Shown piece by piece: positions 5,417 through 26,229 of a DNA stretch of 64,000 nucleotides. The DNA lies in NCBI GenBank assembly GCA_049472355.1, contig JBLIRP010000004.1:1-64000 (forward strand). Reading direction: 5' to 3'. The DNA is from a bacterium. GTDB taxonomy: Bacteria; SZUA-182; DTGQ01; JAFGSM01. Made by a program: the position numbers and the translations under genes. Position 1 is the stretch's first letter. Each line of letters begins with the position of its first letter. A model generated the notes under the pieces. It did no database searches. It saw only the letters and a list, made by a program, of their open reading frames with translations, and was not told the DNA's origin.

Positions 5417-6385
5417 TTGGAAACCCATAATCCTCACAGAGCGATTACCGGCAACCCTCCCGACCCTATCACCCTGTCCGGGAAGGAATCCTATCACCTG
5501 CAGTTTCGTTTCGAATACGGCTTTCTGGACGATGGGACCCTCTGGATAAGGACCCCCGCAAAGGGCCTCTATCATGTGGATTGGCTCACGCTTCGCCTGC
5601 TCCTGGAACTGAACGCGGGTGTACCGCTGGACACGCTCTGCAAAAAGTACAAGGTTGATCCACAGGAACTCGGAAAGCTCCTGATCAACCTGCAGCAGGA
5701 GGGGGCCGTCGTTTCTCCCAGGGAGGGCAAGATCACCCAGGCACACCAGACGGATGACATCCCTATCGCCCCCTTCGTGTTTCTCTTCATCCTGCTCGCC
5801 GCGATTCAGATCGAGTACTTCCAGGGTATGGCCCACACCTTTCGCCTCAGGCATTGGTACGAGGCCCTGCTCCTGGGCCTGGTCTCCATGCTTCCCATCG
5901 TGCTGCACGAACTGGGACACTATCTCACCTCGCGCCCCTACTTCCCTTCGCGCCTCGGTTTCACCTTCCTGTGGGTCTTCCCCGCTGTTTACATCGACAC
6001 CCATCCATCCTGGTGCCTGCCGCGCAACATTCGACTGCTCATCAACTCAGCGGGGCTCCTCGCGGACCTCGTGTTCAACACCCTCCTGATCTTCCTGGTG
6101 TTCTATAACCCTTCTTTGGAATACTATGTAACCCCGCTGCTCATACTGCAGTACACCCGCTGGAGCATCATTCTCAACCCCCTGGTAAACGGCGACGGAT
6201 ACTGGCTCCTCTCCGACTTCACCCGCACCGTCAACATGCGCCAGAAGGCATGGAAGTACCTTCGCACCCGGCGTTTCCACTGGCTTTCACTCTACGGGTT
6301 CCTCGCACTCCTCTTCTCGATCTTCTCGGTGCTGGGACTCATCTGGTTTGCCGTGAACCTGTTTCGCATAGGTATATCACTATGA
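5417..6385 (+). CDS. PqqD-like RiPP recognition element (RRE) fused to an M50-family (site-2 protease-like) integral membrane zinc metalloprotease. It has a TTG start with a GGAGGAG SD 8 nt upstream.
   Basis: The N-terminal ~100 aa (YHVDWLTLRLLLELNAGVPLDTLCKKYKVDPQELGKLLINLQQEGAVV) fit the PqqD/RRE pattern. The membrane domain has HELGH (HExxH) within a TM helix and a downstream NPLVNGDGYWLL (LDG-type) motif, as in M50 peptidases. It is divergent from atpB and directly upstream of the rSAM genes. Confidence 0.7.
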   Translation: METHNPHRAITGNPPDPITLSGKESYHLQFRFEYGFLDDGTLWIRTPAKGLYHVDWLTLRLLLELNAGVPLDTLCKKYKVDPQELGKLLINLQQEGAVVSPREGKITQAHQTDDIPIAPFVFLFILLAAIQIEYFQGMAHTFRLRHWYEALLLGLVSMLPIVLHELGHYLTSRPYFPSRLGFTFLWVFPAVYIDTHPSWCLPRNIRLLINSAGLLADLVFNTLLIFLVFYNPSLEYYVTPLLILQYTRWSIILNPLVNGDGYWLLSDFTRTVNMRQKAWKYLRTRRFHWLSLYGFLALLFSIFSVLGLIWFAVNLFRIGISL

Positions 6386-6406: not shown

Positions 6407-8461
6407 ATGACAATGAACTATGCCTTTCTGAAGATACTGTTGATCATACTGGGCGGCATTGCCCTGGTAGGCTCTTCGATGAAGATCATGAAGGAATATG
6501 AACGGGCCGTGGTCTTCCGCCTGGGAAAACTCCTTGGCACCAAGGGTCCCGGCCTGATATTCCTTATACCCCTCTTTGACCGGATCAAGACGGTGGACCT
6601 TCGGCTGGTGTCCATCGACGTGCCGCGGCAGGACATCATGACCAGAGACAATGTGCCGGTCACCGTGGACGCGGTGGTCTATTTTCAGATCACCGACCCC
6701 TCGTGCGCGGTCATCACCATCCAGGACATCTATCAGTCCACCTTCCTCATCGCCCAGGCGACGCTGCGCAACGTGCTCGGGCAGGTGGAACTGGATGATC
6801 TGCTCAGCCAGCAGACCAAGATAAACGAACAACTGGAGAAGATCATCTCCGTACATACCAAACAGTGGGGGATCCGGATTTCCATCGTGGAGATCAAGGA
6901 GGTCACCCTGCCGGAGCAGATGAAACGGGCCATGGCCAAACAGGCGGAGACGGAGCGGGAGCGGAGGGCCAGGCTCATCGATGCCCAGGCCGAGTATCAG
7001 GCCTCCCGGACCCTGGCGGATGCGGGAAGGATCCTGGCCCAGAATCCCCAGGGATTGCAGCTCCGCTATCTGCAAACCCTTAGGGATATCTCCTCGAACA
7101 AGGGCTCCACCATACTCTTTCCCATGCCGCTAAACCTCCTGAGCCCCTTCCTGGACAGGGTGGGCGAGGTGTTCAAGACCGCACGGGGTACACAGCCATC
7201 TGAGGCGGAATCCATCCCTGCCGGAAGGAGCGCATCCACACCTGCAGTCGAGCCCCTCACGGAAAAGCATAAGTCCGCAACCCCGGTTGCCGAACCATTT
7301 CCGGTGAATGAAAGGCCAGCAGCCACGCCCGCCGAGCCCCTCTTCGCGCAGACAAAAACCGCACCCCAGGCAGCCGTTCCGCAGGGCGACCTCACAGAGC
7401 AATCGCTCATCGAACGATATACCAAACGCACCGCGGAAGGGGGGGTGGTGCCGCGGTTCGTGCAGTGGGTGCTCACCGATCGATGCCAGTTTCAATGCCC
7501 CCACTGTGATACCGCCGCCGGGGGGCCACAGGAAGGCGAGCTTACCACTGAGCAGGCACACAAGGTGGTGGACGACCTTGCCGCGATGGGATGCGAGTTC
7601 CTCTCCCTCACCGGCGGAGAGCCGATGCTGCGCGAGGATTTCTTTGCCGTCGCCTGCTATGCCAAGGAGAAGGGATTGCCCCTCGGCCTGACCACCAACG
7701 CGCAGGCCGTCGAGGAGCACCTTGCAGCGCTTGCCGATCTCAAACTCGATTCGGTGGTGGTGACCCTGGACGGCTACGGCGACGTCCAGAACAGGATACG
7801 CAATGCGCATGATTCCTACGAGCGGGGGATCAGGGGGATCGAGTTCTTCCACGATATCGGCGTTCCCAGGATCTGCGTGTCCACGATCCTTGTCGAGGAG
7901 AGCCTCGCCGGGCTCCCCCGTTTGACGGAGGATGTGTTCCGGTCAGGCGCCAATCTGATGCAGGTACAGCCGCAGGTATACCTGAATGGCCGACCGGAGC
8001 GCAACACGCCCGAGGTGGTGAAGGGGGCCTTCAAATTCATCCTGGGGGCCCGAACACGCGGATTTCCCGTGGAGGCAGGGGAACAATTCGGCTTTCTTGG
8101 CCCCCTGGAGCAGATCCTGAGGCCATCCCCGTTTTTCTGCGGGTGCGGGTGGAACACCTTTTGCATTACCAACAATGGAACGATCCAGGGCTGTCAGGCC
8201 TTGTCCCGTACGGATATCCGCGAGGGAAACTGCACGCAGGATACATTAAGCATAATATGGCAGGAGGGTTTCACGTCTTTTCGTAAAGAAACACCCGAAT
8301 CCCTTCCGGAGGGATGTCGGCGATGCCCTCACCTTTCCGTGTGCAGGGGGGGATGCTGGATCCTCCGCGTGTACGGGTTGAATCCCTGCTTCCTGCTGGA
8401 GGCGGAACAGGTTCACCGGGAGATTACCGATGCAGCAGCGCTATATCCTCAAACTCCTTAA
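6407..8461 (+). CDS. Fusion protein: N-terminal TM anchor plus stomatin/SPFH (band 7) domain, a Pro/Ala/Thr-rich linker, then a radical SAM domain with a C-terminal SPASM domain
   Basis: Residues ~25-245 align almost residue-for-residue with stomatin (EYERAVVFRLGKLLGTKGPGLIFLIPLFDRIKTVDLR...IAQATLRNVLGQVELDDLLSQ...GLQLRYLQTLRDISSNKGSTILFPMPLNLL). Residues ~345-684 carry the CxxxCxxC motif (CQFQCPHC), a GGEP motif (LTGGEPML) and a Cys-rich SPASM tail (FFCGCGWNTFCITNNGTIQGC...CRRCPHLSVCRGGC). The SD sits at 6400-6406; ATG 6407 and ATG 6413 are both possible starts. Confidence 0.8.
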   Translation: MTMNYAFLKILLIILGGIALVGSSMKIMKEYERAVVFRLGKLLGTKGPGLIFLIPLFDRIKTVDLRLVSIDVPRQDIMTRDNVPVTVDAVVYFQITDPSCAVITIQDIYQSTFLIAQATLRNVLGQVELDDLLSQQTKINEQLEKIISVHTKQWGIRISIVEIKEVTLPEQMKRAMAKQAETERERRARLIDAQAEYQASRTLADAGRILAQNPQGLQLRYLQTLRDISSNKGSTILFPMPLNLLSPFLDRVGEVFKTARGTQPSEAESIPAGRSASTPAVEPLTEKHKSATPVAEPFPVNERPAATPAEPLFAQTKTAPQAAVPQGDLTEQSLIERYTKRTAEGGVVPRFVQWVLTDRCQFQCPHCDTAAGGPQEGELTTEQAHKVVDDLAAMGCEFLSLTGGEPMLREDFFAVACYAKEKGLPLGLTTNAQAVEEHLAALADLKLDSVVVTLDGYGDVQNRIRNAHDSYERGIRGIEFFHDIGVPRICVSTILVEESLAGLPRLTEDVFRSGANLMQVQPQVYLNGRPERNTPEVVKGAFKFILGARTRGFPVEAGEQFGFLGPLEQILRPSPFFCGCGWNTFCITNNGTIQGCQALSRTDIREGNCTQDTLSIIWQEGFTSFRKETPESLPEGCRRCPHLSVCRGGCWILRVYGLNPCFLLEAEQVHREITDAAALYPQTP

Positions 8462-9536
8462 GGAGCGACCCAGGTACTTCCTGGACCGGATCAGGTTCTA
8501 TCCCAAGAACGTGGTGTGGGAGCTCACCCTGCGGTGCAACATGAACTGCGCCCACTGCGGGTCCACCGCCGGGCATGCCAGGCAGGAGGAGCTGAATCAC
8601 GATGAGGCCCTGGATCTCTGCCGCCAGCTCGGGGAGATGGGGTGCGAGATCCTCACCCTGCTCGGGGGCGAGCCCTTCATGCGGGAGGACTGGGACGACC
8701 TCGCCCGGTGTCTCGGGTCGCACGGGGTGCGGGTGAATGCCATCACCAACGGCTATGCCATGGACCAGGCGCTGGCCGACCGGATCAAAAAGGCACGCCT
8801 CACCAACGTGGCCGTCAGTATCGACGGTCTCAAAAAAACACACGAGAAGATACGAAGAAAGCCCGACTGCTACCAGCGGGCCCTGAACGCCCTCGACATC
8901 CTTCAAAAAAACGGGATATCCACCGCGGTGGTCACCACCATCTGCCGTGACAACCTCCCGGAGCTGGACGGCCTCTACGAGGTGATACTCCGGCAACGGG
9001 TGGAGATCTGGCAGATCCAGATCGGGGTCCCCCGGGGGAGGCTGTGCGAACACAGCGACTACATCATCCAGCCGGAGAACCTCCCGGAGCTCGAGCGGTT
9101 CACCCTGAAGATTCGGGAGGAACGACGACTGCGCCTGGATATCGCAGACAATATCGGCTATTTCGGCAGAAGCGAGGAGGTCCTGAGGGCGGGCCCCACG
9201 GCGAGGCTGCCCTTCTGGACCGGCTGCTATGCGGGGATCCAGGCCATGGGCGTCGATGCAAACGGGGACATCAAGGGATGTCTCTCCATGCCGTCGTTGC
9301 CCGAATTCATCGAAGGAAACGTGCGCAAAGAGCCCCTCAAGACGATCTGGGAAAGGCCGGGGGCCTTTTCCTACAATCGCGATTTCCGTGCGGATATGCT
9401 CGAGGGGGATTGCGCGGATTGCGAATATGGTCATATCTGCCGTGCAGGATGTAAATCCACGGCCTATTGCTTTACCGGTTCCTTTTTCAACAACCCCTAT
9501 TGCTTTCACCGGATCGAAAGCAAAGGAAGGGAGTGA
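8430..9536 (+). CDS. Radical SAM/SPASM domain peptide-modifying enzyme (second of a tandem pair)
   Basis: The motifs are CNMNCAHC (CxxxCxxC), LLGGEPFMRED and a SPASM C-terminus (GCYAGIQAMGVDANGDIKGC...EGDCADCEYGHICRAGCKSTAYCF). It overlaps the upstream gene by 32 nt, which indicates translational coupling. Confidence 0.85.
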   Translation: MQQRYILKLLKERPRYFLDRIRFYPKNVVWELTLRCNMNCAHCGSTAGHARQEELNHDEALDLCRQLGEMGCEILTLLGGEPFMREDWDDLARCLGSHGVRVNAITNGYAMDQALADRIKKARLTNVAVSIDGLKKTHEKIRRKPDCYQRALNALDILQKNGISTAVVTTICRDNLPELDGLYEVILRQRVEIWQIQIGVPRGRLCEHSDYIIQPENLPELERFTLKIREERRLRLDIADNIGYFGRSEEVLRAGPTARLPFWTGCYAGIQAMGVDANGDIKGCLSMPSLPEFIEGNVRKEPLKTIWERPGAFSYNRDFRADMLEGDCADCEYGHICRAGCKSTAYCFTGSFFNNPYCFHRIESKGRE

Positions 9537-9543
9537 TACGACA

Positions 9544-10080
9544 ATGCCGCATATATTCTTTGAACCCCTGGAAAAAAGACGGAGCACGCAGACACTCTTT
9601 CCCACGTTCGGCGGCAATACCGCCATAGCCATCTACTCGGCACCGGTGCCCGAATACGGGGTCGGGATCGGATACACCCCGCCCTCAAACAACTACCTCC
9701 TGTACGGGATCAATCCGCCTTCGAGCGGCTATTCACCGTGGTCGGGAGGGGGGCTCTTCGGGTGGTCGAATCCCTTTAACAGCTACAATCCCTGGGGCTC
9801 ATGGGGTTCATCATGGAGCTCCCCCTGGGGCTGGGGCTCATCCTGGAGTTCCCCCTGGGGTTCCGGAAGCTGGTCCTCCCCCTTCGGGGGCTTCTTCGGC
9901 GGTTTCTTCGGGGGACTCTTCGGAGGCTCTTCTCCCTGGTCATGGGGAGGCAGCCCGAGCTTCCCGGACATCCGGCTTCTGTACGGGGTTTTCCCCAATC
10001 CCACCCCTCCCACTGAAATCATCGCCTTTTACGGGGTCGGGATACCGAGTGTGAGTTCATTCTCGGGAACCCTCTGGTAG
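9544..10080 (+). CDS. Gly/Ser/Trp/Pro-rich repetitive protein (178 aa). It is the candidate precursor or substrate of the adjacent radical SAM enzymes.
   Basis: ATG lies 8 nt after the rSAM stop, with a GGGAG SD. High GC3 throughout. The sequence reads MPHIFFEPLEKRRSTQTLFPTFGG...YSPWSGGGLFGWSNPFNSYNPWGSWGSSWSSPWGWGSSWSSPWGSGSWSSPFGGFFGGFFGGLFGGSSPWSWGGSPSF..., with degenerate tandem SSWSSPWG-like repeats at protein and DNA level. There is no obvious Sec signal. The antisense ORF in the same repeats is shorter and non-operonic. Confidence 0.55.
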   Translation: MPHIFFEPLEKRRSTQTLFPTFGGNTAIAIYSAPVPEYGVGIGYTPPSNNYLLYGINPPSSGYSPWSGGGLFGWSNPFNSYNPWGSWGSSWSSPWGWGSSWSSPWGSGSWSSPFGGFFGGFFGGLFGGSSPWSWGGSPSFPDIRLLYGVFPNPTPPTEIIAFYGVGIPSVSSFSGTLW

Positions 10081-10228
10081 AAGACAGATAGCGTGTTGAC
10101 CTGAAATCGTACGAGCGCGAGGGCTTGCATTACCCATAGGATGTTCTGCTGTATGCCGAATGCGGCGTGAGGATTGCTCCGGGCTTGCGCCCCCGCAATG
10201 ACATTTGCCCTGCGCCCGATCAGAACGT

Positions 10229-10264
10229 CAACAGGCCCGGGGACGATCGTCCCCGGGCCTGTTG
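10229..10264. terminator. Perfect 36-nt GC-rich palindrome (CAACAGGCCCGGGGACGATCGTCCCCGGGCCTGTTG) about 150 nt downstream of the GSW-rich ORF. It is likely an operon terminator or protein-binding site.
   Basis: Read directly. It has a 16-bp perfect stem around a GATC centre and no T-tract, so it could be a factor-dependent or bidirectional terminator or a regulatory hairpin. Confidence 0.45.
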
Positions 10265-10724
10265 CTCTGTCGTCCGGCACTACAGACCCGCTTGTTATGG
10301 CTGCATGTTCGTAATCACTACCCCTGCCTCCTTCCGGTTGCAAACGGCATCCACCGGCACGAGATCTCCCAATGGATCGACAAGTACAACCGATGGCTCT
10401 TTGCCTTCTACTTCAATTTCGCCGGAGATGATCTCGAAGGCGATCTATCCAACCCCCTGGTATCACATTTGCTACGAAATGCCATAAAGGGGACCTGCCT
10501 CTCCGGTCCCTTAATACGAATAATACGTAAGGAACCGCGGACAGCGATTCGTATGCTGGGCATGTAAGGGAGTGACAAGCAAACATGTCCGCCCATAATG
10601 ATACAACGCCACAATCGCACATCGATGGACCACATAGGTGAAGTTTGCACTGAACCAAGTCCTCGAGTACAATGAACATGAGGGAATTTTATCCATATCT
10701 TTTACGATATAAGGGCAACATTTT

Positions 10725-11630
10725 ATGAAGGTTGGATGGTTTTTCGTTTTCTTGAAGTATTACTTCAACACCCGGTTATTGGGCAGAAGGACCCCGCTTC
10801 TTGCCGGGTTCAAGATCACCCACAAGTGCAACCTCACCTGCCGCCACTGTCCCTTCTGGCACGAAAACCTCCCCCAGATGACCTTCCAGGAGGTTAAGGG
10901 GGTTTTAAAACGCCTGCATGCCATGGGGATCAGAATCCTTCTCATCGAGGGCGGGGAACCCTTCCTCTGGCGTGATGGAGCATTCGGGCTCCAGGATGTG
11001 GTGAATGAGGCGAAGCGTTATTTCTTGAGCGTGGGGGTGACCACAAACGGAACCATATCCCTGGACCTTGATTCCAACAGCCTCTGGGTGAGCCTGGACG
11101 GACTCAGGGACACGCACAACCACATCCGCGGCCAGGACATCTTCGATCGGGTGGTCGCAAACATCGAATCCTGCACCCATCCCAACCTCTATGTCAACAC
11201 CACCATCAACAGCCTCAACTGGAAGGAGATACCCGATCTGGTCAAGTTTCTGAAGGACAAGGTCAAGGGGGTGACCATTCAGTTCTACTACCCTTATGAA
11301 AAAACGGACCGGTTGATGCTCACCAACGGACAGAGGATAACCGTGCTCGATGAGCTCATCCGGCTCAAACGGGAGGGATGGCCGGTGATCAATTCATTCC
11401 GGGCACTTGAAAACCTGAAGACCAACAACTGGACCCGCCGATGCAAGGAATGGATGATCACGAGCGTCGAGCCTGACGGCACCATCACCCAGGGTTGCTA
11501 TGTGAAGAACCGTGATACCGTGCAGTGCGAGGTATGCGGATTTTCCACCAACACCGAGATCACCCTTGCCTACGAGCTTGTGTTCGAGTCCATCAATGTA
11601 GGAAGAAGGGTATTCAACTACAGCCGCTGA
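10725..11630 (+). CDS. Radical SAM protein (third in cluster) with a truncated C-terminal Cys-rich (twitch/SPASM-like) region
   Basis: Motifs are KCNLTCRHC (CxxxCxxC), LIEGGEPFL and C-terminal cysteines (CKEWMITSVEPDGTITQGCYVKNRDTVQCEVCGF). It is preceded by an AT-rich ~650-nt spacer. Confidence 0.8.
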   Translation: MKVGWFFVFLKYYFNTRLLGRRTPLLAGFKITHKCNLTCRHCPFWHENLPQMTFQEVKGVLKRLHAMGIRILLIEGGEPFLWRDGAFGLQDVVNEAKRYFLSVGVTTNGTISLDLDSNSLWVSLDGLRDTHNHIRGQDIFDRVVANIESCTHPNLYVNTTINSLNWKEIPDLVKFLKDKVKGVTIQFYYPYEKTDRLMLTNGQRITVLDELIRLKREGWPVINSFRALENLKTNNWTRRCKEWMITSVEPDGTITQGCYVKNRDTVQCEVCGFSTNTEITLAYELVFESINVGRRVFNYSR

Positions 11631-11862: not shown

Positions 11863-12990
11863 TCACAGGGCGAGGTTCGGTATCTGATCGATCACCAGGA
11901 ACGCAAAGGAGACCCTGCTCACGGCGTTCTCCAGAAGCATCCTGGAGTAGGCGGGATTGTGGGCACCCCTGCTCCCGTCGGCCTTCACAAAGAGGTAAAC
12001 ATCCCGGGCAAGGGTATAAATCCCGTTGATCCGGCTTATGTCCTGCCCCATTTCCTCGGCCCTTCGAATGCCCTCGGCCAGCGCGGGAAGACGATCCTCC
12101 AGCGTCTTCAAGGTGCGGGCGATCACCGCCCTCTCCTGCTCCTCCTGCGACAAGGTTTGGGCATCGTGACACTCCAGGCATGTCTGGACAGGGCGGGGCA
12201 CGCACCCCTGAGTATGGCAGTCCACGCAGTCCAGACGGACACGCTGATGGGCGGAGGCCTCGCCTGCAGGGATGCCCCCCCCGATATTCCCCAGCAGCAT
12301 GGCCTCCTGATAGATGTGGCAGTATTCGCACTGACTCCGGGAGGCAATCTCGTCGTTGTGGCAGGGAAAACAGAAATCCTTCATGGTGGGGAGGTTTTTT
12401 CCTGCCGGATCGAAACCGTGGGCTATCCGGTCATGGCACACCACACAGGCATACCCTTTTGATATGTGGAGGGCGTGATTGACCCGGATCGAAGAGCCCC
12501 GGTCCATCGTCCACGGGTCGGTATGACATCCCCGGCGCACACAGTATACCGGTTTCTCCGCCTTTATATCATCATCGTAGTTGGCAGTCACATGGTTCCA
12601 CAGGAAAACGAGCCCCCCCAGCTTCGCCTTTATCTTCCCCCCAAAACCCGGGGCGGTGTGACATGCCAGGCAATCCTCCTTGCTCCCGGTGAGTGACCCG
12701 TGAAACGATCGCTCCCATGTCTCATGGGCGGGTTTCATTTCATGGCAGAGGATACAGGACTGCGGCCGGTAGGAATACTCGAGAATAAGCGACATGGCAG
12801 CAATTGCAACCACAAAGATTCCACCGGCCCAGAAGGCGAAACGGACCGGATCCTGGTGCCACAACCTCCTCAAGAAGAAGGAAAGCCCCCCGGTCGCCCC
12901 TGTTTTGTCATGCCCGGACTGGGCGTCGGTTCCCGGTTCAAATCCCATGGTACATCCCTGTTGTCTCGTGTGCTCAAAAGGGCACTCCAA
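11863..12990 (-). CDS. Membrane-anchored multiheme c-type cytochrome (seven CxxCH motifs; NapC/NirT/NrfH-like N-terminus)
   Basis: Heme motifs are CILCH, CLACH, CVVCH, CFPCH, CEYCH, CVDCH and CLECH. The N-terminal TM helix followed by CxxCH...W..S.H is typical of the NapC/NirT family. Confidence 0.8.
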   Translation of the reverse strand: MECPFEHTRQQGCTMGFEPGTDAQSGHDKTGATGGLSFFLRRLWHQDPVRFAFWAGGIFVVAIAAMSLILEYSYRPQSCILCHEMKPAHETWERSFHGSLTGSKEDCLACHTAPGFGGKIKAKLGGLVFLWNHVTANYDDDIKAEKPVYCVRRGCHTDPWTMDRGSSIRVNHALHISKGYACVVCHDRIAHGFDPAGKNLPTMKDFCFPCHNDEIASRSQCEYCHIYQEAMLLGNIGGGIPAGEASAHQRVRLDCVDCHTQGCVPRPVQTCLECHDAQTLSQEEQERAVIARTLKTLEDRLPALAEGIRRAEEMGQDISRINGIYTLARDVYLFVKADGSRGAHNPAYSRMLLENAVSRVSFAFLVIDQIPNLAL

Positions 12991-13158: not shown

Positions 13159-14136
13159 TCATTTCCCTATGTACTGGATATTCAATTCCTTGGGAAGTTC
13201 CATCTTCAGCTTTTTCAGGACATGGGCGTTGGCGTAGAGTCTTGTTTCCGCCTCCGTAGGCCGCATCACAGGAAGATCGGCAGGAGACGTCCCACTGAGG
13301 ACCTTCGCGGCCAGCTTCCCGGCCATTTTACCCACCTCCGCATAGTCAACGCTGATGCAGAGGGTCCCTCCCCGCTCCAGAACGGAGGTACTGGTCATAC
13401 AGGTGGGGATCTGCCTTCGATTGACCGTGGAAAAGATGCGCTCGATGTATCCCACCACATCACGATCGGTCGGCAGGTATATGCAACTGACCCGGCCGGC
13501 GATCCTGTCGACGTAGGCGCCGAGTGACGTAAAGTTCTTCGTGAATTCAAAGGAGATCAGCTCCATACCCTTCTTCTCCAGGATGGCCTCCATCTCCTCC
13601 TTCAATTCCATCGATCCCTTGTCCGTGGGGCTGTAAATCAGGCCGATGTTCCCCGCCCCGAACACCTTGTGCATCAGCTCTATCTGAAGGGAGGTGGGAA
13701 TGGCGATGGACACCCCGGTCAGATTCGGCTGTTTGCTGTCCCAGGATTCGATGATCCTGTAGCCTATGGGATCCAAAACCTTGTTGAAGACGATGGGGGT
13801 CTTTGTATACGCCTTGGCGACCCGCGACGTTATGGTCGAACCGTAGGTATAGATCAATTGGTACTGCGTTTGATCCGTCTGATCGATCAGGTCCTTCAGC
13901 CGATTTACATCCTTGTAGACGTCGAGAACCGTATAGTTGATATTCTGGTCGACAAATTCCTGGGCCAGCGCCTCCTTGAATCCCTTTTCGGTCCCGGTCT
14001 CACCCTGCCACATGAACATCAGGATATTCAGCCTCTTGGCCCGGGCAGGGGCGGGGAAAAGGCATACCAGGAGCGCCATCACCACACCTGTCGCCATGTG
14101 TCTGAAATGGTGCAATCTCATTATTCCTCCTTTCAC
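13159..14136 (-). CDS. ABC transporter substrate-binding protein (COG2984/ABC_sub_bind-like periplasmic component)
   Basis: A signal peptide (ATGVVMALLVCLFPAPARA) is followed by a two-lobed SBP-like sequence (IYSPTDKGSMELKEEMEAILEKKGMEL...). It lies in the same orientation and directly upstream of the cytochrome gene. Confidence 0.6.
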   Translation of the reverse strand: MKGGIMRLHHFRHMATGVVMALLVCLFPAPARAKRLNILMFMWQGETGTEKGFKEALAQEFVDQNINYTVLDVYKDVNRLKDLIDQTDQTQYQLIYTYGSTITSRVAKAYTKTPIVFNKVLDPIGYRIIESWDSKQPNLTGVSIAIPTSLQIELMHKVFGAGNIGLIYSPTDKGSMELKEEMEAILEKKGMELISFEFTKNFTSLGAYVDRIAGRVSCIYLPTDRDVVGYIERIFSTVNRRQIPTCMTSTSVLERGGTLCISVDYAEVGKMAGKLAAKVLSGTSPADLPVMRPTEAETRLYANAHVLKKLKMELPKELNIQYIGK

Positions 14137-25330: not shown

Positions 25331-25716
25331 TCGGGCATGATCCAAAGAATTACATCATAGGGTGTCGTTCAAGCTCGGCTATCGACTGGATCGCTGCGAT
25401 GGTTTTCATATGCATAGATTGACTATGACAAGATGCCCTTATGGAACCCTCACATCTGGACAGCAGTTATTGAATATGGTATAAATAATATAGAAATTTT
25501 TATGTCATTTTTGTTATCCATCGTTCTTTTTGACCGGTAGTGCGATATACCAGGGTATGTTCGGATAATAAGGGAGTCTTCCTTTTGAAGGATCCGGCAC
25601 ATAACCATTAATTCCGGAATTCATTCTCTTGACGGGGATTTTCATAAAGGGACGAGGCAACACGGGTGCATCGCTTCACCCATTTAGAAAAAGCGCATGG
25701 TAAGGAGGAGTGCATA

Positions 25717-26229
25717 ATGGAGGGTCCAAATCGTTCAATTGACAAATACCTGCGGCAGGCGGCGTGCATAGTGAGCATGCTGCTCATCGTTGCAGTGACA
25801 ACACCGACAATGGCTTCAGCCCAAATCTGGTATGGATACGGCGGTGGCTACCGGCCCACAGGGGGATGGACCCCCATGGGTATGGGTTATAACACCATGG
25901 CGGGTATGCCGAACTATTGGGGTATGGCAGCGCCCGTGTCTTATGGTGCAGGGGGCTGGGCCAGGCAGGGCAGCGGGTACTGGGGAGCGGCATCACCCAC
26001 CTGGGGAACGGGGATAGGTTACGCGGGATTCCAGTCAATGGCGCCCAGATATTATGGCTCCTCAGGACCATACGGCACTGGACCGCAGGCGCAATGGATG
26101 AATACGCCTACCTTCCCGCAGCAGGGGTGGCCCTCGTATGCCGGTTATTCTGCCGGTGGGTGGCAGCAGCCTATTGCCGACATTCCTTCCGGGTGGATAG
26201 GCCCGAACAGTTTCGTGTCAACCGGGTGA
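25717..26229 (+). CDS. Secreted Gly/Trp/Tyr-rich low-complexity protein (signal peptide plus about 140 aa of GW/GY-rich sequence)
   Basis: Strong SD AAGGAGG 8 nt before the ATG at 25717. The signal peptide is MEGPNRSIDKYLRQAACIVSMLLIVAVTTPTMASA|QIW. The mature part reads YGYGGGYRPTGGWTPMGMGY...GGWARQGSGYWGAASPTWGTGIGYAGF... An AT-rich promoter region lies at 25440-25660. Confidence 0.6.
   Translation: MEGPNRSIDKYLRQAACIVSMLLIVAVTTPTMASAQIWYGYGGGYRPTGGWTPMGMGYNTMAGMPNYWGMAAPVSYGAGGWARQGSGYWGAASPTWGTGIGYAGFQSMAPRYYGSSGPYGTGPQAQWMNTPTFPQQGWPSYAGYSAGGWQQPIADIPSGWIGPNSFVSTG

What the first reader, a model, noticed from the sequence alone, without database searches (positions are those of the whole stretch)
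9544..10080. 178-aa Trp/Ser/Gly/Pro-rich repeat protein as multi-core precursor candidate (W-x-x-W and SSWSSPWG repeats)
The ORF has a non-repetitive 45-aa N-terminal segment that could act as a leader: MPHIFFEPLEKRRSTQTLFPTFGGNTAIAIYSAPVPEYGVGIGYTP. It then has a low-complexity region with about eight Trp residues in recurring SPWG / SSWSS / WGW contexts, a (F)GGFFGG run, and a distinct C-terminal tail. Radical SAM/SPASM enzymes are known to crosslink Trp (streptide Lys-Trp, darobactin Trp-Trp ether and Trp-Lys, three-residue cyclophanes at W-x-x motifs). The repeated W-x-x(-x)-W spacing is therefore suggestive. Repeats are visible at the DNA level too, so the region could expand or contract.
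Basis: partly seen in the sequence, partly recalled or inferred. Interest (0 to 1): 0.8.

Follow-up and report, generated by a model that had tools for sequence, protein, structure and literature searches.

The report
New radical-SAM peptide precursor family
The 178-residue Trp/Ser/Gly/Pro-rich ORF is a real, conserved gene that most likely encodes the substrate of an undescribed peptide-modification cassette (two radical SAM enzymes, one fused to a stomatin ring domain, plus a membrane protease with a leader-binding domain), but its conserved features are an 18-residue N-terminal tag and repeated Tyr-Gly-Ile/Val motifs, not the tryptophan repeats.

Summary
Window 9544-10080 (+) encodes a 178-aa protein with 13 Trp, a 30-nt x2 repeat and a 12-nt x4.3 repeat. 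The + frame is the coding frame: against a 95%-identical orthologue there are 28 synonymous and 5 non-synonymous codon differences, plus one 12-nt indel.

The ORF is the last gene of a tight operon: an RRE-fused site-2-type HExxH membrane protease, a stomatin(SPFH)::rSAM/SPASM fusion, a second rSAM/SPASM, then the ORF. This cassette recurs in at least 10 uncultured-bacterium MAGs. A split version occurs in an Elusimicrobiota MAG.

The family is rare: 29 clusters among 1.84 billion representatives. All members share an almost invariant N-terminus, M-x-H-I-F-F-E-x-L-E-x-R-x-S-T-Q. It is followed by a hypervariable, disordered aromatic/Gly/Pro/Ser-rich region of 80-240 aa.

The recurrent conserved element is ΦΦ-Y-G-[I/V]-x-x-P, at 3-6 copies per protein against 0.1-0.5 expected. 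The W-x-x-W repeats are lineage-specific. The core has no Cys or Lys, which excludes thioether and Lys-Trp chemistry.

Best reading: a new RiPP-like precursor family modified at several Y-G-I/V sites. The chemistry is not determined; a Tyr-to-Cβ cyclophane or Ile/Val epimerisation are the main candidates.

The parts
5417..6385 (+). RRE-fused site-2-type HExxH intramembrane metalloprotease (322 aa), the putative leader peptidase
6407..8461 (+). Stomatin/SPFH domain fused through a Pro/Ala/Thr-rich linker to a radical SAM/SPASM enzyme (684 aa)
   Evidence: Pfam finds Band_7 at aa 27-196, Radical_SAM at 355-495 and SPASM at 578-641. The SPFH part scores 219 bits to human stomatin, whose PDB entries list 16 chains per entry. 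The best NCBIfam match for the catalytic part is TIGR04133, at 121 bits against a cutoff of 425. The fusion is conserved in L001, L006-L008, L015, L019, L021, L024 and L027. In L032, Band_7 is a separate gene.
8430..9536 (+). Radical SAM/SPASM enzyme (368 aa) with no N-terminal RRE
   Evidence: Pfam finds Radical_SAM and SPASM. The best NCBIfam matches are TIGR04103 (290 bits, cutoff 725) and TIGR03913 (248 bits, cutoff 592). Orthologues at 66% identity or more form only about 17 clusters; those whose surroundings were examined belong to this cassette. Identity then drops to about 50%. The family ORF always follows directly.
9544..10080 (+). The finding: a 178-aa precursor-like protein (NCBI MGA1794441.1, annotated 'hypothetical protein')
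   Evidence: establish the gene. AF2 predicts no fold (pLDDT 36). It matches no Pfam or NCBIfam family.
9544..9597 (+). Leader-like tag, aa 1-18: MPHIFFEPLEKRRSTQTL
   Evidence: H3, F5, F6, L9, E10, R12, T15 and Q16 are invariant in 58 unique family members. A related tag, KKLF[LI]EDLE[QK]R[KR]STS, occurs in the distant cassettes L032 and L033.
9655..9663 (+). Y-G-V motif 1 (aa 38-40, VPEYGVGIG)
9703..9711 (+). Y-G-I motif 2 (aa 54-56, LLYGINPP)
   Evidence: Y54 and G55 are invariant in A1.
9793..9873 (+). Lineage-specific Trp-rich repeat (aa 84-110), containing the 30-nt x2 DNA repeat
   Evidence: One search shows the DNA repeat. The region is an insertion relative to most homologues.
9883..9927 (+). 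FGGFFGGFFGGLFGG (aa 114-128), a 12-nt repeat and part of the family's central FSPxxNxFGGLFGG motif
   Evidence: One search shows the repeat. The central motif was seen by eye in many members; a loose pattern I wrote for it matches 26 of 58 unique members.
9982..9990 (+). Y-G-V motif 3 (aa 147-149, DIRLLYGVFPNP)
   Evidence: R144, Y147 and G148 are invariant in A1.
10030..10038 (+). Y-G-V motif 4 (aa 163-165, IIAFYGVGIP)
   Evidence: Y163 is invariant and G164 nearly invariant in A1.
10231..10264 (+). 16-bp perfect GC-rich hairpin about 150 nt after the stop codon; possible operon terminator or mRNA end
   Evidence: Folding of 10215-10285, which contains it, gives -42.6 kcal/mol, z = -5.8, with 0 of 200 shuffles as stable. 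It has no U-tract and was not flagged by the terminator scan.

Best explanation
The ORF encodes a ribosomally made substrate (a RiPP-like precursor) of the three enzymes encoded just upstream.

Proposed steps:
1. The almost invariant 18-residue N-terminus, M-x-HIFFE-x-LE-x-R-x-STQ, acts as a leader. It docks on the PqqD-like RRE domain that forms the cytoplasmic N-terminus of the HExxH site-2-type membrane protease.
2. This holds the intrinsically disordered aromatic/Gly/Pro/Ser-rich remainder at the membrane. There the stomatin-fused rSAM/SPASM enzyme, probably an oligomeric ring with many tethered catalytic domains, and the free rSAM/SPASM enzyme modify it at several sites.
3. The most likely sites are the recurrent ΦΦ-Y-G-[I/V]-x-x-P motifs, four in this protein.
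4. The most likely chemistry is H-abstraction at the Ile/Val followed by a Tyr-aryl-to-Cβ crosslink, a triceptide-like Ω1-X2-X3 cyclophane. Epimerisation of the Ile/Val, as in epipeptides, is the alternative.
5. The protease domain then removes the leader and releases, or helps export, a modified polypeptide of about 160 residues.

What is shown: the gene is real and under purifying selection; its linkage to the cassette is conserved; the domain identities of the enzymes; the conservation of the leader; the enrichment of the motif; and the co-variation of Y-G-[I/V] with the TIGR04103-like rSAM.

What is inferred: leader-RRE binding, the site and type of chemistry, the cleavage position, export, and the biological role.

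The Trp repeats are a lineage-specific expansion of the low-complexity spacer. They may or may not be additional modification sites.
For: - **Coding frame.** 28 synonymous against 5 non-synonymous codon changes relative to the orthologue.
- **Conserved linkage.** The order HExxH, SPFH::rSAM, rSAM, then 1-2 family genes holds in L001-L003, L006-L008, L015, L019 and L024. The parts of it that the contig covers are seen in L012, L025 and L027. In L004/L009 the downstream context differs, so the linkage is not mere synteny.
- **Operon structure.** Gene spacings are 21 nt, a 32-nt overlap, and 7 nt.
- **Leader versus core.** 10 of the first 16 residues are invariant in A1, against 16 of the remaining 162. 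This holds for 58 unique members.
- **Scattered paralogues.** Several paralogues per genome share the leader but have unrelated cores. Some are unlinked and some sit beside other rSAM pairs. This is a pattern typical of RiPP precursor families.
- **RRE plus S2P architecture** of the HExxH protein. The same architecture removes the leader in daptides (PMC10028931), and an M50 membrane protease matures rSAM-made epipeptides (PMC10885120).
- **Motif enrichment.** Y-G-[IV] occurs 3-6 times per protein against 0.1-0.5 in shuffles, 171 motifs in all with a consensus ending in Pro at +5.
- **Cross-phylum conservation.** The Elusimicrobiota cassette L032 has both rSAM types, Band_7 and HExxH. Its 174-aa ORF carries a related leader and 5 x PMYGIEPTPVPVQ.
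- **Co-variation.** Cassettes without a TIGR04103-like rSAM (L033, L017, L021) have precursors with 0-1 Y-G-[IV].
- **Disorder.** AF2 predicts no fold for the ORF.
- **Intact enzymes.** Both rSAMs keep CxxxCxxC and the SPASM cysteines (translations).
Against: - There is no experimental evidence of modification, cleavage or expression.
- At 139-260 aa, family members are much longer than typical RiPP precursors, and the leader is unusually short.
- Neither rSAM has its own RRE. Neither reaches the curated cutoff of any NCBIfam peptide-maturase family.
- No transporter lies in the window cassette.
- The co-variation of Y-G-[IV] with one rSAM type rests on only about 5 cassette types.
- One cassette-linked member (L024, 99 aa) has no Y-G-[IV].
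- The central FGGLFGG motif and the over-represented aromatic C-terminus (35 of 58) are unexplained by this model.
Confidence: 0.72

Rival explanations
1. One reading: the Trp residues in W-x-x-W / SSWSSPWG repeats are the cores of a multi-core precursor and are crosslinked by the rSAMs (streptide-, darobactin- or Trp-cyclophane-type).
For: The protein has 13 Trp, eight of them in a regular repeat. Several distant members are also Trp-rich, with SPW/NPW/PWD repeats: L012, L017 and P0014. W-S-S, W-G-S and W-S-N are formally Ω1-X2-X3 motifs. Two rSAMs are present, so a second type of site is possible.
Against: The repeat block is an insertion absent from most close homologues. Trp counts range from 2 to 18. 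Only W66 is invariant and W105 nearly invariant in A1. The core has no Lys, so Lys-Trp links are impossible. The repeat number changes between near-identical strains, which suggests a spacer rather than a defined pharmacophore. There are no conserved cleavage sites between units.
Confidence: 0.12
2. It is not a small natural-product precursor but a protein-sized structural or material substrate. A disordered aromatic/Gly-rich polypeptide would be targeted by its N-terminal tag to the stomatin/S2P membrane platform and crosslinked by the rSAMs, within or between chains. It would then be deposited in the envelope or matrix or form a condensate. This overlaps with the best explanation and differs in the nature and role of the product.
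For: Members are 139-260 aa long. The composition is 20% Gly, 19% Ser, 13% Pro and 22% aromatic, with almost no charge in the core (4 charged residues). The protein is predicted to be disordered. An FG-like FGGLFGG motif is conserved, and the C-terminal residue is aromatic far more often than expected (35/58, P 1.6e-11). The rSAM is fused to stomatin, a scaffold-forming domain. The same genome encodes another, Sec-targeted G/Y/W-rich protein.
Against: No Sec/Tat signal or sorting motif is present. Hypervariable cores with several paralogues per genome and adjacent efflux genes (TolC/MFP/RND in L032, FtsX in L021) fit secreted bioactive peptides at least as well. There is no direct evidence either way.
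Confidence: 0.14
3. It is a spurious or antisense-coded ORF: the low-complexity sequence merely stays open by chance, or the real gene is the antisense PPKK ORF at 9783-10022.
For: Low-complexity GC-rich DNA keeps several frames open. Frame +2 is open for 141 codons and the antisense frames for about 80.
Against: The 28:5 synonymous to non-synonymous ratio applies to the + frame. An invariant N-terminal peptide is conserved across 58 sequences and more than one phylum. An RBS is present and the start is tightly coupled to the upstream gene. The length of the antisense open stretches is erratic in homologues. The gene is called in independent assemblies.
Confidence: 0.01

Closest known systems
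Daptides (MpaA precursors; MpaP, an RRE fused to an intramembrane site-2 protease) - PMC10028931
   Same: The leader peptidase architecture is the same: an N-terminal RRE fused to an S2P-type HExxH membrane protease. There is weak sequence similarity to NCBIfam daptide_HExxH. Both have a short conserved acidic N-terminal leader motif (ELExMEAP in daptides, FFExLExR here) and several precursors per genome.
   Different: No MpaB/C/D/M-type enzymes are present. The modifying enzymes here are two rSAM/SPASM proteins. The C-terminal residue is aromatic, not the invariant Thr. Cores are 80-240 aa of low-complexity sequence rather than short aliphatic helices. The protease scores 49.7 bits against a cutoff of 300.
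Epipeptides (YydF/EpeX, rSAM epimerase YydG/EpeE, M50 membrane protease YydH/EpeP) - PMC10885120
   Same: Both combine an rSAM enzyme with an intramembrane M50/HExxH protease for maturation. From my own knowledge, YydG epimerises Val and Ile that follow aromatic residues, which resembles the invariant I/V of the Y-G-[I/V] motif. The protease gives a weak hit to the YydH/LiaK family.
   Different: The precursor is about 3.5 times longer and unrelated in sequence. There are two rSAM/SPASM enzymes, one fused to stomatin. The protease carries an RRE. The score of 47.5 bits is far below the 225 cutoff.
Triceptides (three-residue cyclophane RiPPs made by 3-CyFE rSAM/SPASM enzymes) - PMC11499958
   Same: The precursor carries several Ω1-X2-X3 motifs (Y-G-I/V) in one chain. 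The maturase is an rSAM/SPASM enzyme. Tyr-containing motifs have precedent: YDR is modified by ChlB.
   Different: None of the motifs named in the paper read here has Ile/Val at X3. The maturases here lack the N-terminal RRE and are closest to the uncharacterised TIGR04103/TIGR03913/TIGR04133 families. The precursors are far longer. The crosslink itself is untested.
Nif11-class / GDL-motif peptide rSAM maturase systems (NCBIfam TIGR04103, TIGR03913)
   Same: These are the best sequence matches for the 368-aa rSAM, covering nearly the whole profile (290 and 248 bits).
   Different: The scores are far below the curated cutoffs of 725 and 592. The precursor has no Nif11 or GDL-peptide signature (no NCBIfam or Pfam hit). 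The next-closest rSAM homologues, at about 50% identity, sit beside RimK/ATP-grasp genes and not this cassette.
Stomatin/SPFH-protease operon pairs (stomatin-NfeD, HflK/C-FtsH)
   Same: An SPFH/stomatin protein is encoded next to a membrane protease. The stomatin part is full-length (219 bits to human stomatin). HflK/C are also hit.
   Different: Here the SPFH domain is covalently fused to an rSAM/SPASM enzyme and the partner protease is an RRE-S2P. A full-text search found no paper that combines SPFH or stomatin with rSAM peptide maturation.

Membership tests
RiPP precursor (generic definition) | Gene-encoded peptide with a conserved recognition (leader) segment and a variable core | tested here: met
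   The 18-aa N-terminus is nearly invariant in 58 members and the remainder is hypervariable.
RiPP precursor (generic definition) | Conserved genomic linkage to post-translational modification enzymes and a leader peptidase | tested here: met
   The cassette is conserved in at least 10 MAGs plus a split version in Elusimicrobiota.
RiPP precursor (generic definition) | An RRE (PqqD-like) domain is present in the pathway | tested here: met
   [not shown]
RiPP precursor (generic definition) | Demonstrated post-translational modification and leader removal | not testable with these tools
   This needs co-expression and mass spectrometry.
Triceptides | Ω1-X2-X3 motif(s), with Ω1 aromatic, in the core | tested here: met
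   Y-G-[I/V] occurs 4 times here and 3-6 times in most members, 10-30 times more often than in shuffles. The definition is taken from PMC11499958.
Triceptides | The maturase belongs to the 3-CyFE rSAM/SPASM clades | tested here: inconclusive
   The best NCBIfam hits are the uncharacterised TIGR04103/03913/04133 families, all below cutoff. The nearest PDB relatives, SkfB, PqqE, CteB and SuiB, score only 31-58 bits. No 3-CyFE reference set was available for a tree.
Triceptides | Aromatic-carbon-to-Cβ crosslink (-2 Da per motif) | not testable with these tools
   This needs MS/MS and NMR.
Daptides | RRE-S2P fusion peptidase scoring as MpaP (NF041824) | tested here: not met
   The architecture is the same, but the score is 49.7 bits against a cutoff of 300 and covers only the membrane part.
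Daptides | Invariant C-terminal Thr and the ELExMEAP leader | tested here: not met
   The C-terminus is Trp here and aromatic in 35 of 58 members. The leader is FFExLExRxSTQ. The daptide features are from PMC10028931.
Daptides | MpaB/C/D/M modification enzymes in the cluster | tested here: not met
   The cassette contains only two rSAM/SPASM enzymes and the protease.
Epipeptides | YydH/LiaK-family M50 protease (NF058609) | tested here: not met
   The score is 47.5 bits against a cutoff of 225.
Epipeptides | YydG-type rSAM epimerase and a YydF-like precursor of about 50 aa | tested here: inconclusive
   The precursor is 178 aa and unrelated in sequence. No YydG family appears among the top 25 NCBIfam hits of either rSAM, but only the top 25 were listed.
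Streptide / darobactin-type Lys-Trp crosslinked RiPPs | Lys and Trp partners in the core | tested here: not met
   There is no Lys after residue 11. The core has only 4 charged residues: E37, D142, R144 and E158. DynA scores 82 bits against 450 and WgkB 124 bits against 650.
Sactipeptides / ranthipeptides | Cys donors in the core | tested here: not met
   There are 0 Cys in the window protein and in nearly all members.
Nif11-class rSAM maturase 3 system (TIGR04103) | The rSAM scores above the curated cutoff and the precursor has a Nif11-type leader | tested here: not met
   The score is 290 bits against a cutoff of 725. The precursor has no NCBIfam or Pfam hit.
Mycofactocin | MftC-type rSAM, MftB RRE protein, and a precursor ending in G-V-Y | tested here: not met
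   TIGR03962 scores 118 and 111 bits against a cutoff of 265. The C-terminus is ...SGTLW. However, the aromatic C-termini across the family are unexplained.

The most novel reading that the evidence does not exclude
This would be a new class of protein-sized RiPP. A polypeptide of about 160 residues, intrinsically disordered, almost uncharged and rich in aromatic residues and Gly, is captured through an 18-residue tag by an RRE-site-2-protease. It is then processed inside or under a stomatin-type ring that carries many tethered radical SAM domains. This amounts to a membrane 'maturation cage' that installs several Tyr-(Ile/Val) crosslinks or D-residues before release. Neither the stomatin-rSAM fusion nor this precursor family turned up in the literature searches run here.
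Probability: 0.3. Interest if true: 0.85.

Novelty: new variant of a known kind. Interest (0 to 1): 0.7.

Why it matters
If confirmed, this defines a new rSAM-dependent RiPP-like family. It has an unusually short invariant leader and unusually long, low-complexity, rapidly evolving cores. It also has a new recurrent target motif, Y-G-[I/V]-x-x-P.

It would be the first case of a radical SAM maturase fused to a stomatin/SPFH scaffold. That implies peptide maturation organised on a membrane microdomain or cage together with an RRE-dependent intramembrane leader peptidase.

It would give enzymologists two uncharacterised rSAM/SPASM clades with a clear candidate substrate. The leader is also a convenient handle: a pattern taken from its first nine residues found further precursors in genomes, including unlinked ones.

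The family is confined to uncultured lineages and is annotated only as 'hypothetical protein'.

Tried and rejected
- **Family scans of the ORF.** Pfam and NCBIfam scans of the ORF and of the antisense ORF gave no hits.
- **Structure of the ORF.** AF2 with a 16-sequence alignment predicted no structure (pLDDT 36). This fits disorder, but the alignment is shallow.
- **Rfam.** A scan of the whole window found no RNA family.
- **Terminator scan.** It did not flag the strong hairpin at 10231-10264 because there is no U-tract.
- **Literature.** Searches for SPFH or stomatin with rSAM or RiPP, and for TIGR04103/TIGR03913, returned nothing relevant.
- **Chemistry from neighbours.** I looked for clues in the next-closest rSAM homologues (about 50% identity). 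They sit beside RimK/ATP-grasp genes in unrelated contexts and were uninformative.
- **Second family copy in the window.** None was found in the 640-bp downstream gap or elsewhere. There were only weak compositional hits, the best to an unrelated secreted G/Y/W-rich ORF.
- **Downstream rSAM (10725-11630).** I considered it as part of the system and rejected it. It is separated by 640 bp with promoter-like sites and is absent downstream of the family genes in L004/L009.
- **Taxonomy.** This could not be resolved. NCBI labels the source MAGs only as 'bacterium'.
Full report
**1. The observation**

It starts 7 nt after the stop of the upstream radical SAM gene and is preceded by AGGGAG.

It has 13 Trp (7.3%). 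Eight of them fall in aa 84-110 in SPWG/SSWSS/WGW contexts. FGGFFGGFFGGLFGG follows at aa 114-128.

Tandem Repeats Finder confirms the DNA-level repeats: a 30-nt unit x2 at 9802-9860 and a 12-nt unit x4.3 at 9882-9932. The prediction that the region can expand or contract is borne out. The 95%-identical orthologue in L006, and P0001, each carry one extra 12-nt FGGx unit.

**2. Coding frame**

I aligned the ORF codon by codon with the L006 orthologue. There are 145 identical codons, 28 codons with synonymous-only differences and 5 with non-synonymous differences. That is strong purifying selection in the + frame.

The antisense PPKK ORF (9783-10022) is a by-product of low-complexity composition. 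Antisense open stretches vary erratically among homologues.

The gene is called independently in many assemblies. It is deposited at NCBI as MGA1794441.1, 'MAG: hypothetical protein [bacterium]'.

**3. Genomic context**

Four genes on the + strand form a tight unit:
- 5417-6385: an HExxH membrane protein.
- 6407-8461: an SPFH/Band 7 domain fused to radical SAM/SPASM.
- 8430-9536: a radical SAM/SPASM enzyme. It overlaps the previous gene by 32 nt.
- 9544-10080: the ORF.

A 16-bp perfect hairpin at 10231-10264 follows the ORF. The next gene, a DUF3463-type rSAM at 10725, lies 640 bp away behind promoter-like sites. It is absent downstream of the family genes in L004/L009, so I do not count it as part of the system.

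**4. Conservation of the ORF and the cassette**

A search of 5.8 billion proteins found 15 homologues, all annotated as hypothetical. A profile search of 1.84 billion representatives found only 29 clusters. The family is real but rare.

Gene neighbourhoods show the order HExxH, SPFH::rSAM, rSAM-368, then one or two tandem family genes in L001-L003, L006-L008, L015, L019 and L024. The parts of it that the contig covers are seen in L012, L025 and L027. In L004/L009 the downstream context differs, so the linkage to the rSAM is not passive synteny.

**5. What is conserved in the protein**

*The leader.* In 58 unique members the N-terminus is M-[APS]-H-I-F-F-E-[RKP]-L-E-[KN]-R-[QRK]-S-T-Q-[STA]-L. 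H3, F5, F6, L9, E10, R12, T15 and Q16 are invariant.

*The variable remainder.* Beyond about residue 18 the sequences become hypervariable. They are 80-240 residues long, rich in Gly, Ser, Pro, Tyr, Phe and Trp, nearly uncharged and free of Cys.

*Paralogues.* Single genomes carry several paralogues with the same tag and unrelated remainders. Some are unlinked (L010, L011, L013, L014, L016, L018, L022, L023). Some sit beside other rSAM pairs (L017, L021). This conserved-leader, variable-core, scattered-paralogue pattern is typical of RiPP precursor families.

*Trp is not the conserved element.* The SSWSSPWG block is an insertion seen only in this lineage, and partly in P0014 and P0015. Trp counts range from 2 to 18. 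In the close subfamily only W66 is invariant and W105 nearly invariant.

*The recurrent motif.* What recurs everywhere is Y-G-[I/V]. It appears 3-6 times per protein against 0.1-0.5 expected from shuffles. There are 171 motifs in all, with the consensus [VRQ]-[LPA]-[LY]-Y-G-[VI]-[SN]-[PIV]-P. In the window protein they are at aa 38-40, 54-56, 147-149 and 163-165.

*Two further features I cannot explain.* A central FSPxxNxFGGLFGG motif recurs. The C-terminal residue is aromatic in 35 of 58 members against 20% expected (P about 1.6e-11).

AF2 predicts no fold for the protein (pLDDT 36).

**6. The enzymes**

*The two rSAMs.* Both keep the CxxxCxxC and SPASM cysteines. rSAM-368 is closest to NCBIfam TIGR04103 (290 bits, cutoff 725) and TIGR03913 (248 bits, cutoff 592). 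The catalytic half of the fusion is closest to TIGR04133 (121 bits, cutoff 425). Neither belongs to a curated family. The nearest solved structures, SkfB, PqqE, CteB and SuiB, are distant.

*The stomatin part.* The N-terminal half of the fusion is a full stomatin. It scores 219 bits to human stomatin, whose PDB entries list 16 chains per entry. It is joined to the rSAM by a Pro/Ala/Thr-rich linker of about 100 residues.

*The HExxH protein.* It was modelled with 32 homologues (pLDDT 85, pTM 0.79).
- Residues 30-94 form a β3-α3 domain.
- The remainder is a helical membrane domain carrying HELGH.
- Foldseek E-values were not significant, though RRE proteins ranked highest by probability. Pfam sees no PqqD domain.

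An RRE fused to an intramembrane S2P is the leader peptidase architecture described for daptides (PMC10028931). An M50 membrane protease matures the rSAM-made epipeptides (PMC10885120).

In L024 a truncated gene keeps only the RRE-like domain. That is consistent with the domain being a separate module.

**7. A distant version of the system**

HExxH homologues at 43-48% identity occur in other phyla.

In an Elusimicrobiota MAG (L032) the neighbourhood holds a TIGR04103-like rSAM, a TIGR04133-like rSAM, a separate Band_7 gene, the HExxH protease and a TolC/MFP/RND exporter. It also has a 174-aa ORF that begins MDKKKLFLEDLEQRKSTS and contains 5 x PMYGIEPTPVPVQ. So both the leader motif (ΦFΦE-x-LE-x-R-x-ST) and the Y-G-[I/V]-x-P motif cross phylum boundaries.

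In L033 the protease sits beside an rSAM(TIGR04133-like)::ATP-grasp fusion. The precursor has the same leader type but different repeats and no Y-G-[I/V].

The precursors beside the L017 and L021 rSAM pairs, which lack a TIGR04103-like enzyme, have 1 and 0 motifs.

From this small sample, Y-G-[I/V] co-varies with the TIGR04103-like rSAM (rSAM-368 here). This is a suggestion, not a proof.

**8. Mechanism**

I commit to the following model, with 0.72 confidence for the precursor role. It is inferred except where a call is cited.

1. The disordered precursor docks by its 18-residue tag on the RRE of the membrane protease.
2. The stomatin::rSAM fusion and rSAM-368 then modify the tethered chain. 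By analogy with stomatin, the fusion is probably an oligomeric ring presenting many flexibly tethered catalytic domains on the cytoplasmic face. The cytoplasmic orientation is an inference from the Fe-S and SAM requirement.
3. The S2P domain removes the leader and releases or exports the product.

For the chemistry I favour a Tyr-aryl-to-Cβ(Ile/Val) three-residue cyclophane. Y-G-[I/V] fits the triceptide Ω1-X2-X3 definition (PMC11499958).

Ile/Val epimerisation is the main alternative. It is epipeptide-like, and the resemblance to YydG specificity comes from my own knowledge.

The composition excludes thioether links, because there is no Cys. It also excludes Lys-Trp links, because there is no Lys after residue 11.

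Trp modification is neither shown nor excluded, but it cannot be the conserved function.

**9. Comparison with known families, and novelty**

The system works like an rSAM RiPP pathway with a daptide-type RRE-S2P leader peptidase. It fails the membership tests for every family I considered: daptides, epipeptides, the Nif11/TIGR04103 system, mycofactocin, sacti- and ranthipeptides, and streptide/darobactin (see the membership table). Triceptide membership is open: the motif test is met, the enzyme clade is inconclusive and the crosslink is untestable here.

I found no literature linking SPFH or stomatin to rSAM peptide maturation. No curated model exists for the precursor.

I therefore class it as a new variant of a known kind: a new candidate RiPP-like family. 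Its unusual features are protein-sized low-complexity cores, a very short invariant leader and a stomatin-fused maturase.

**10. Verdict on the finding**

The conserved target motif is Y-G-[I/V], not W-x-x-W. 'Multi-site' fits better than 'multi-core'.

Interest is 0.7.

Noticed in passing
window 6407-8461 (+): A full-length stomatin/SPFH domain (219 bits to human stomatin, whose PDB entries list 16 chains per entry) is fused to a radical SAM/SPASM enzyme through a Pro/Ala/Thr-rich linker of about 100 aa. In the Elusimicrobiota relative (L032 5135-5890) Band_7 is a separate gene in the same neighbourhood. I found no description of such a fusion in the literature searches.
   Followed up: partly
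[not shown]
   Followed up: yes
window 10231-10264 (+): A perfect 16-bp GC-rich hairpin (the 71-nt stretch around it folds at -42.6 kcal/mol, z = -5.8) lies about 150 nt downstream of the ORF stop and has no U-tract. It may be a terminator or an RNA-stabilising end. The rest of the 640-bp gap up to 10724 is unexplained.
   Followed up: partly
window 25666-26229 (+): A 187-aa ORF has an N-terminal hydrophobic, signal-like segment followed by a Gly/Tyr/Trp/Met/Pro-rich low-complexity region (IWYGYGGGYRPTGGWTPMGMGY...). It lacks the HIFFE leader, so it is not a family member. It shows that this genome encodes other aromatic/Gly-rich proteins.
   Followed up: no
window 10725-11630 (+) and 11863-12990 (-): A third radical SAM gene (PTO1314/HpnH-like with DUF3463) and a NapC/NirT-type multihaem cytochrome lie downstream. 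They are syntenic in close relatives (L001, L006, L007) but absent next to the cassette in L004/L009, so they are probably unrelated to the precursor.
   Followed up: partly
window 13159-14136 (-): An ABC substrate-binding protein has its best NCBIfam hit to the tryptophan-binding TrpX (123 bits, cutoff 390). It lies a few kb from a Trp-rich ORF. This is probably coincidence.
   Followed up: no
L017 2861-3643 and L021 1712-2371: Two family members beside a different rSAM pair share, in addition to the HIFFE leader, a conserved helical-looking C-terminal tail (...K[MV]RE[NS]LIA[LF]F[RQ]NKGILS[DE]...QRLL...). This may be a second recognition or 'follower' element. L021 is flanked by FtsX-type permeases.
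   Followed up: no
L024 5979-6602 and 10775-12532: In a second cassette of MAG299 the HExxH gene is truncated to the RRE-like domain only. The linked family member is short (99 aa, no Y-G-[I/V]). A subtilisin-like protease, judged by eye from its GHGTH and GTSPAA motifs, lies downstream. This is either a decaying copy or a variant using a different protease.
   Followed up: no
L033 5261-5788 and 5926-8001: A distant cassette pairs the same type of leader (MKKKLFIEDLEKRRSTS) with an rSAM/SPASM::ATP-grasp fusion enzyme. Its core has two PIAPQPVVGSGGGATTLAMGEEGDGPI repeats. The leader/RRE-S2P module seems to be shared among different chemistries.
   Followed up: partly
family-wide (58 sequences; window aa 178): The C-terminal residue is aromatic (Y, F or W) in 35 of 58 members against 20% expected (P about 1.6e-11). 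A central FSPxxNxFGGLFGG motif recurs in many members. Neither feature is explained by the proposed mechanism.
   Followed up: partly
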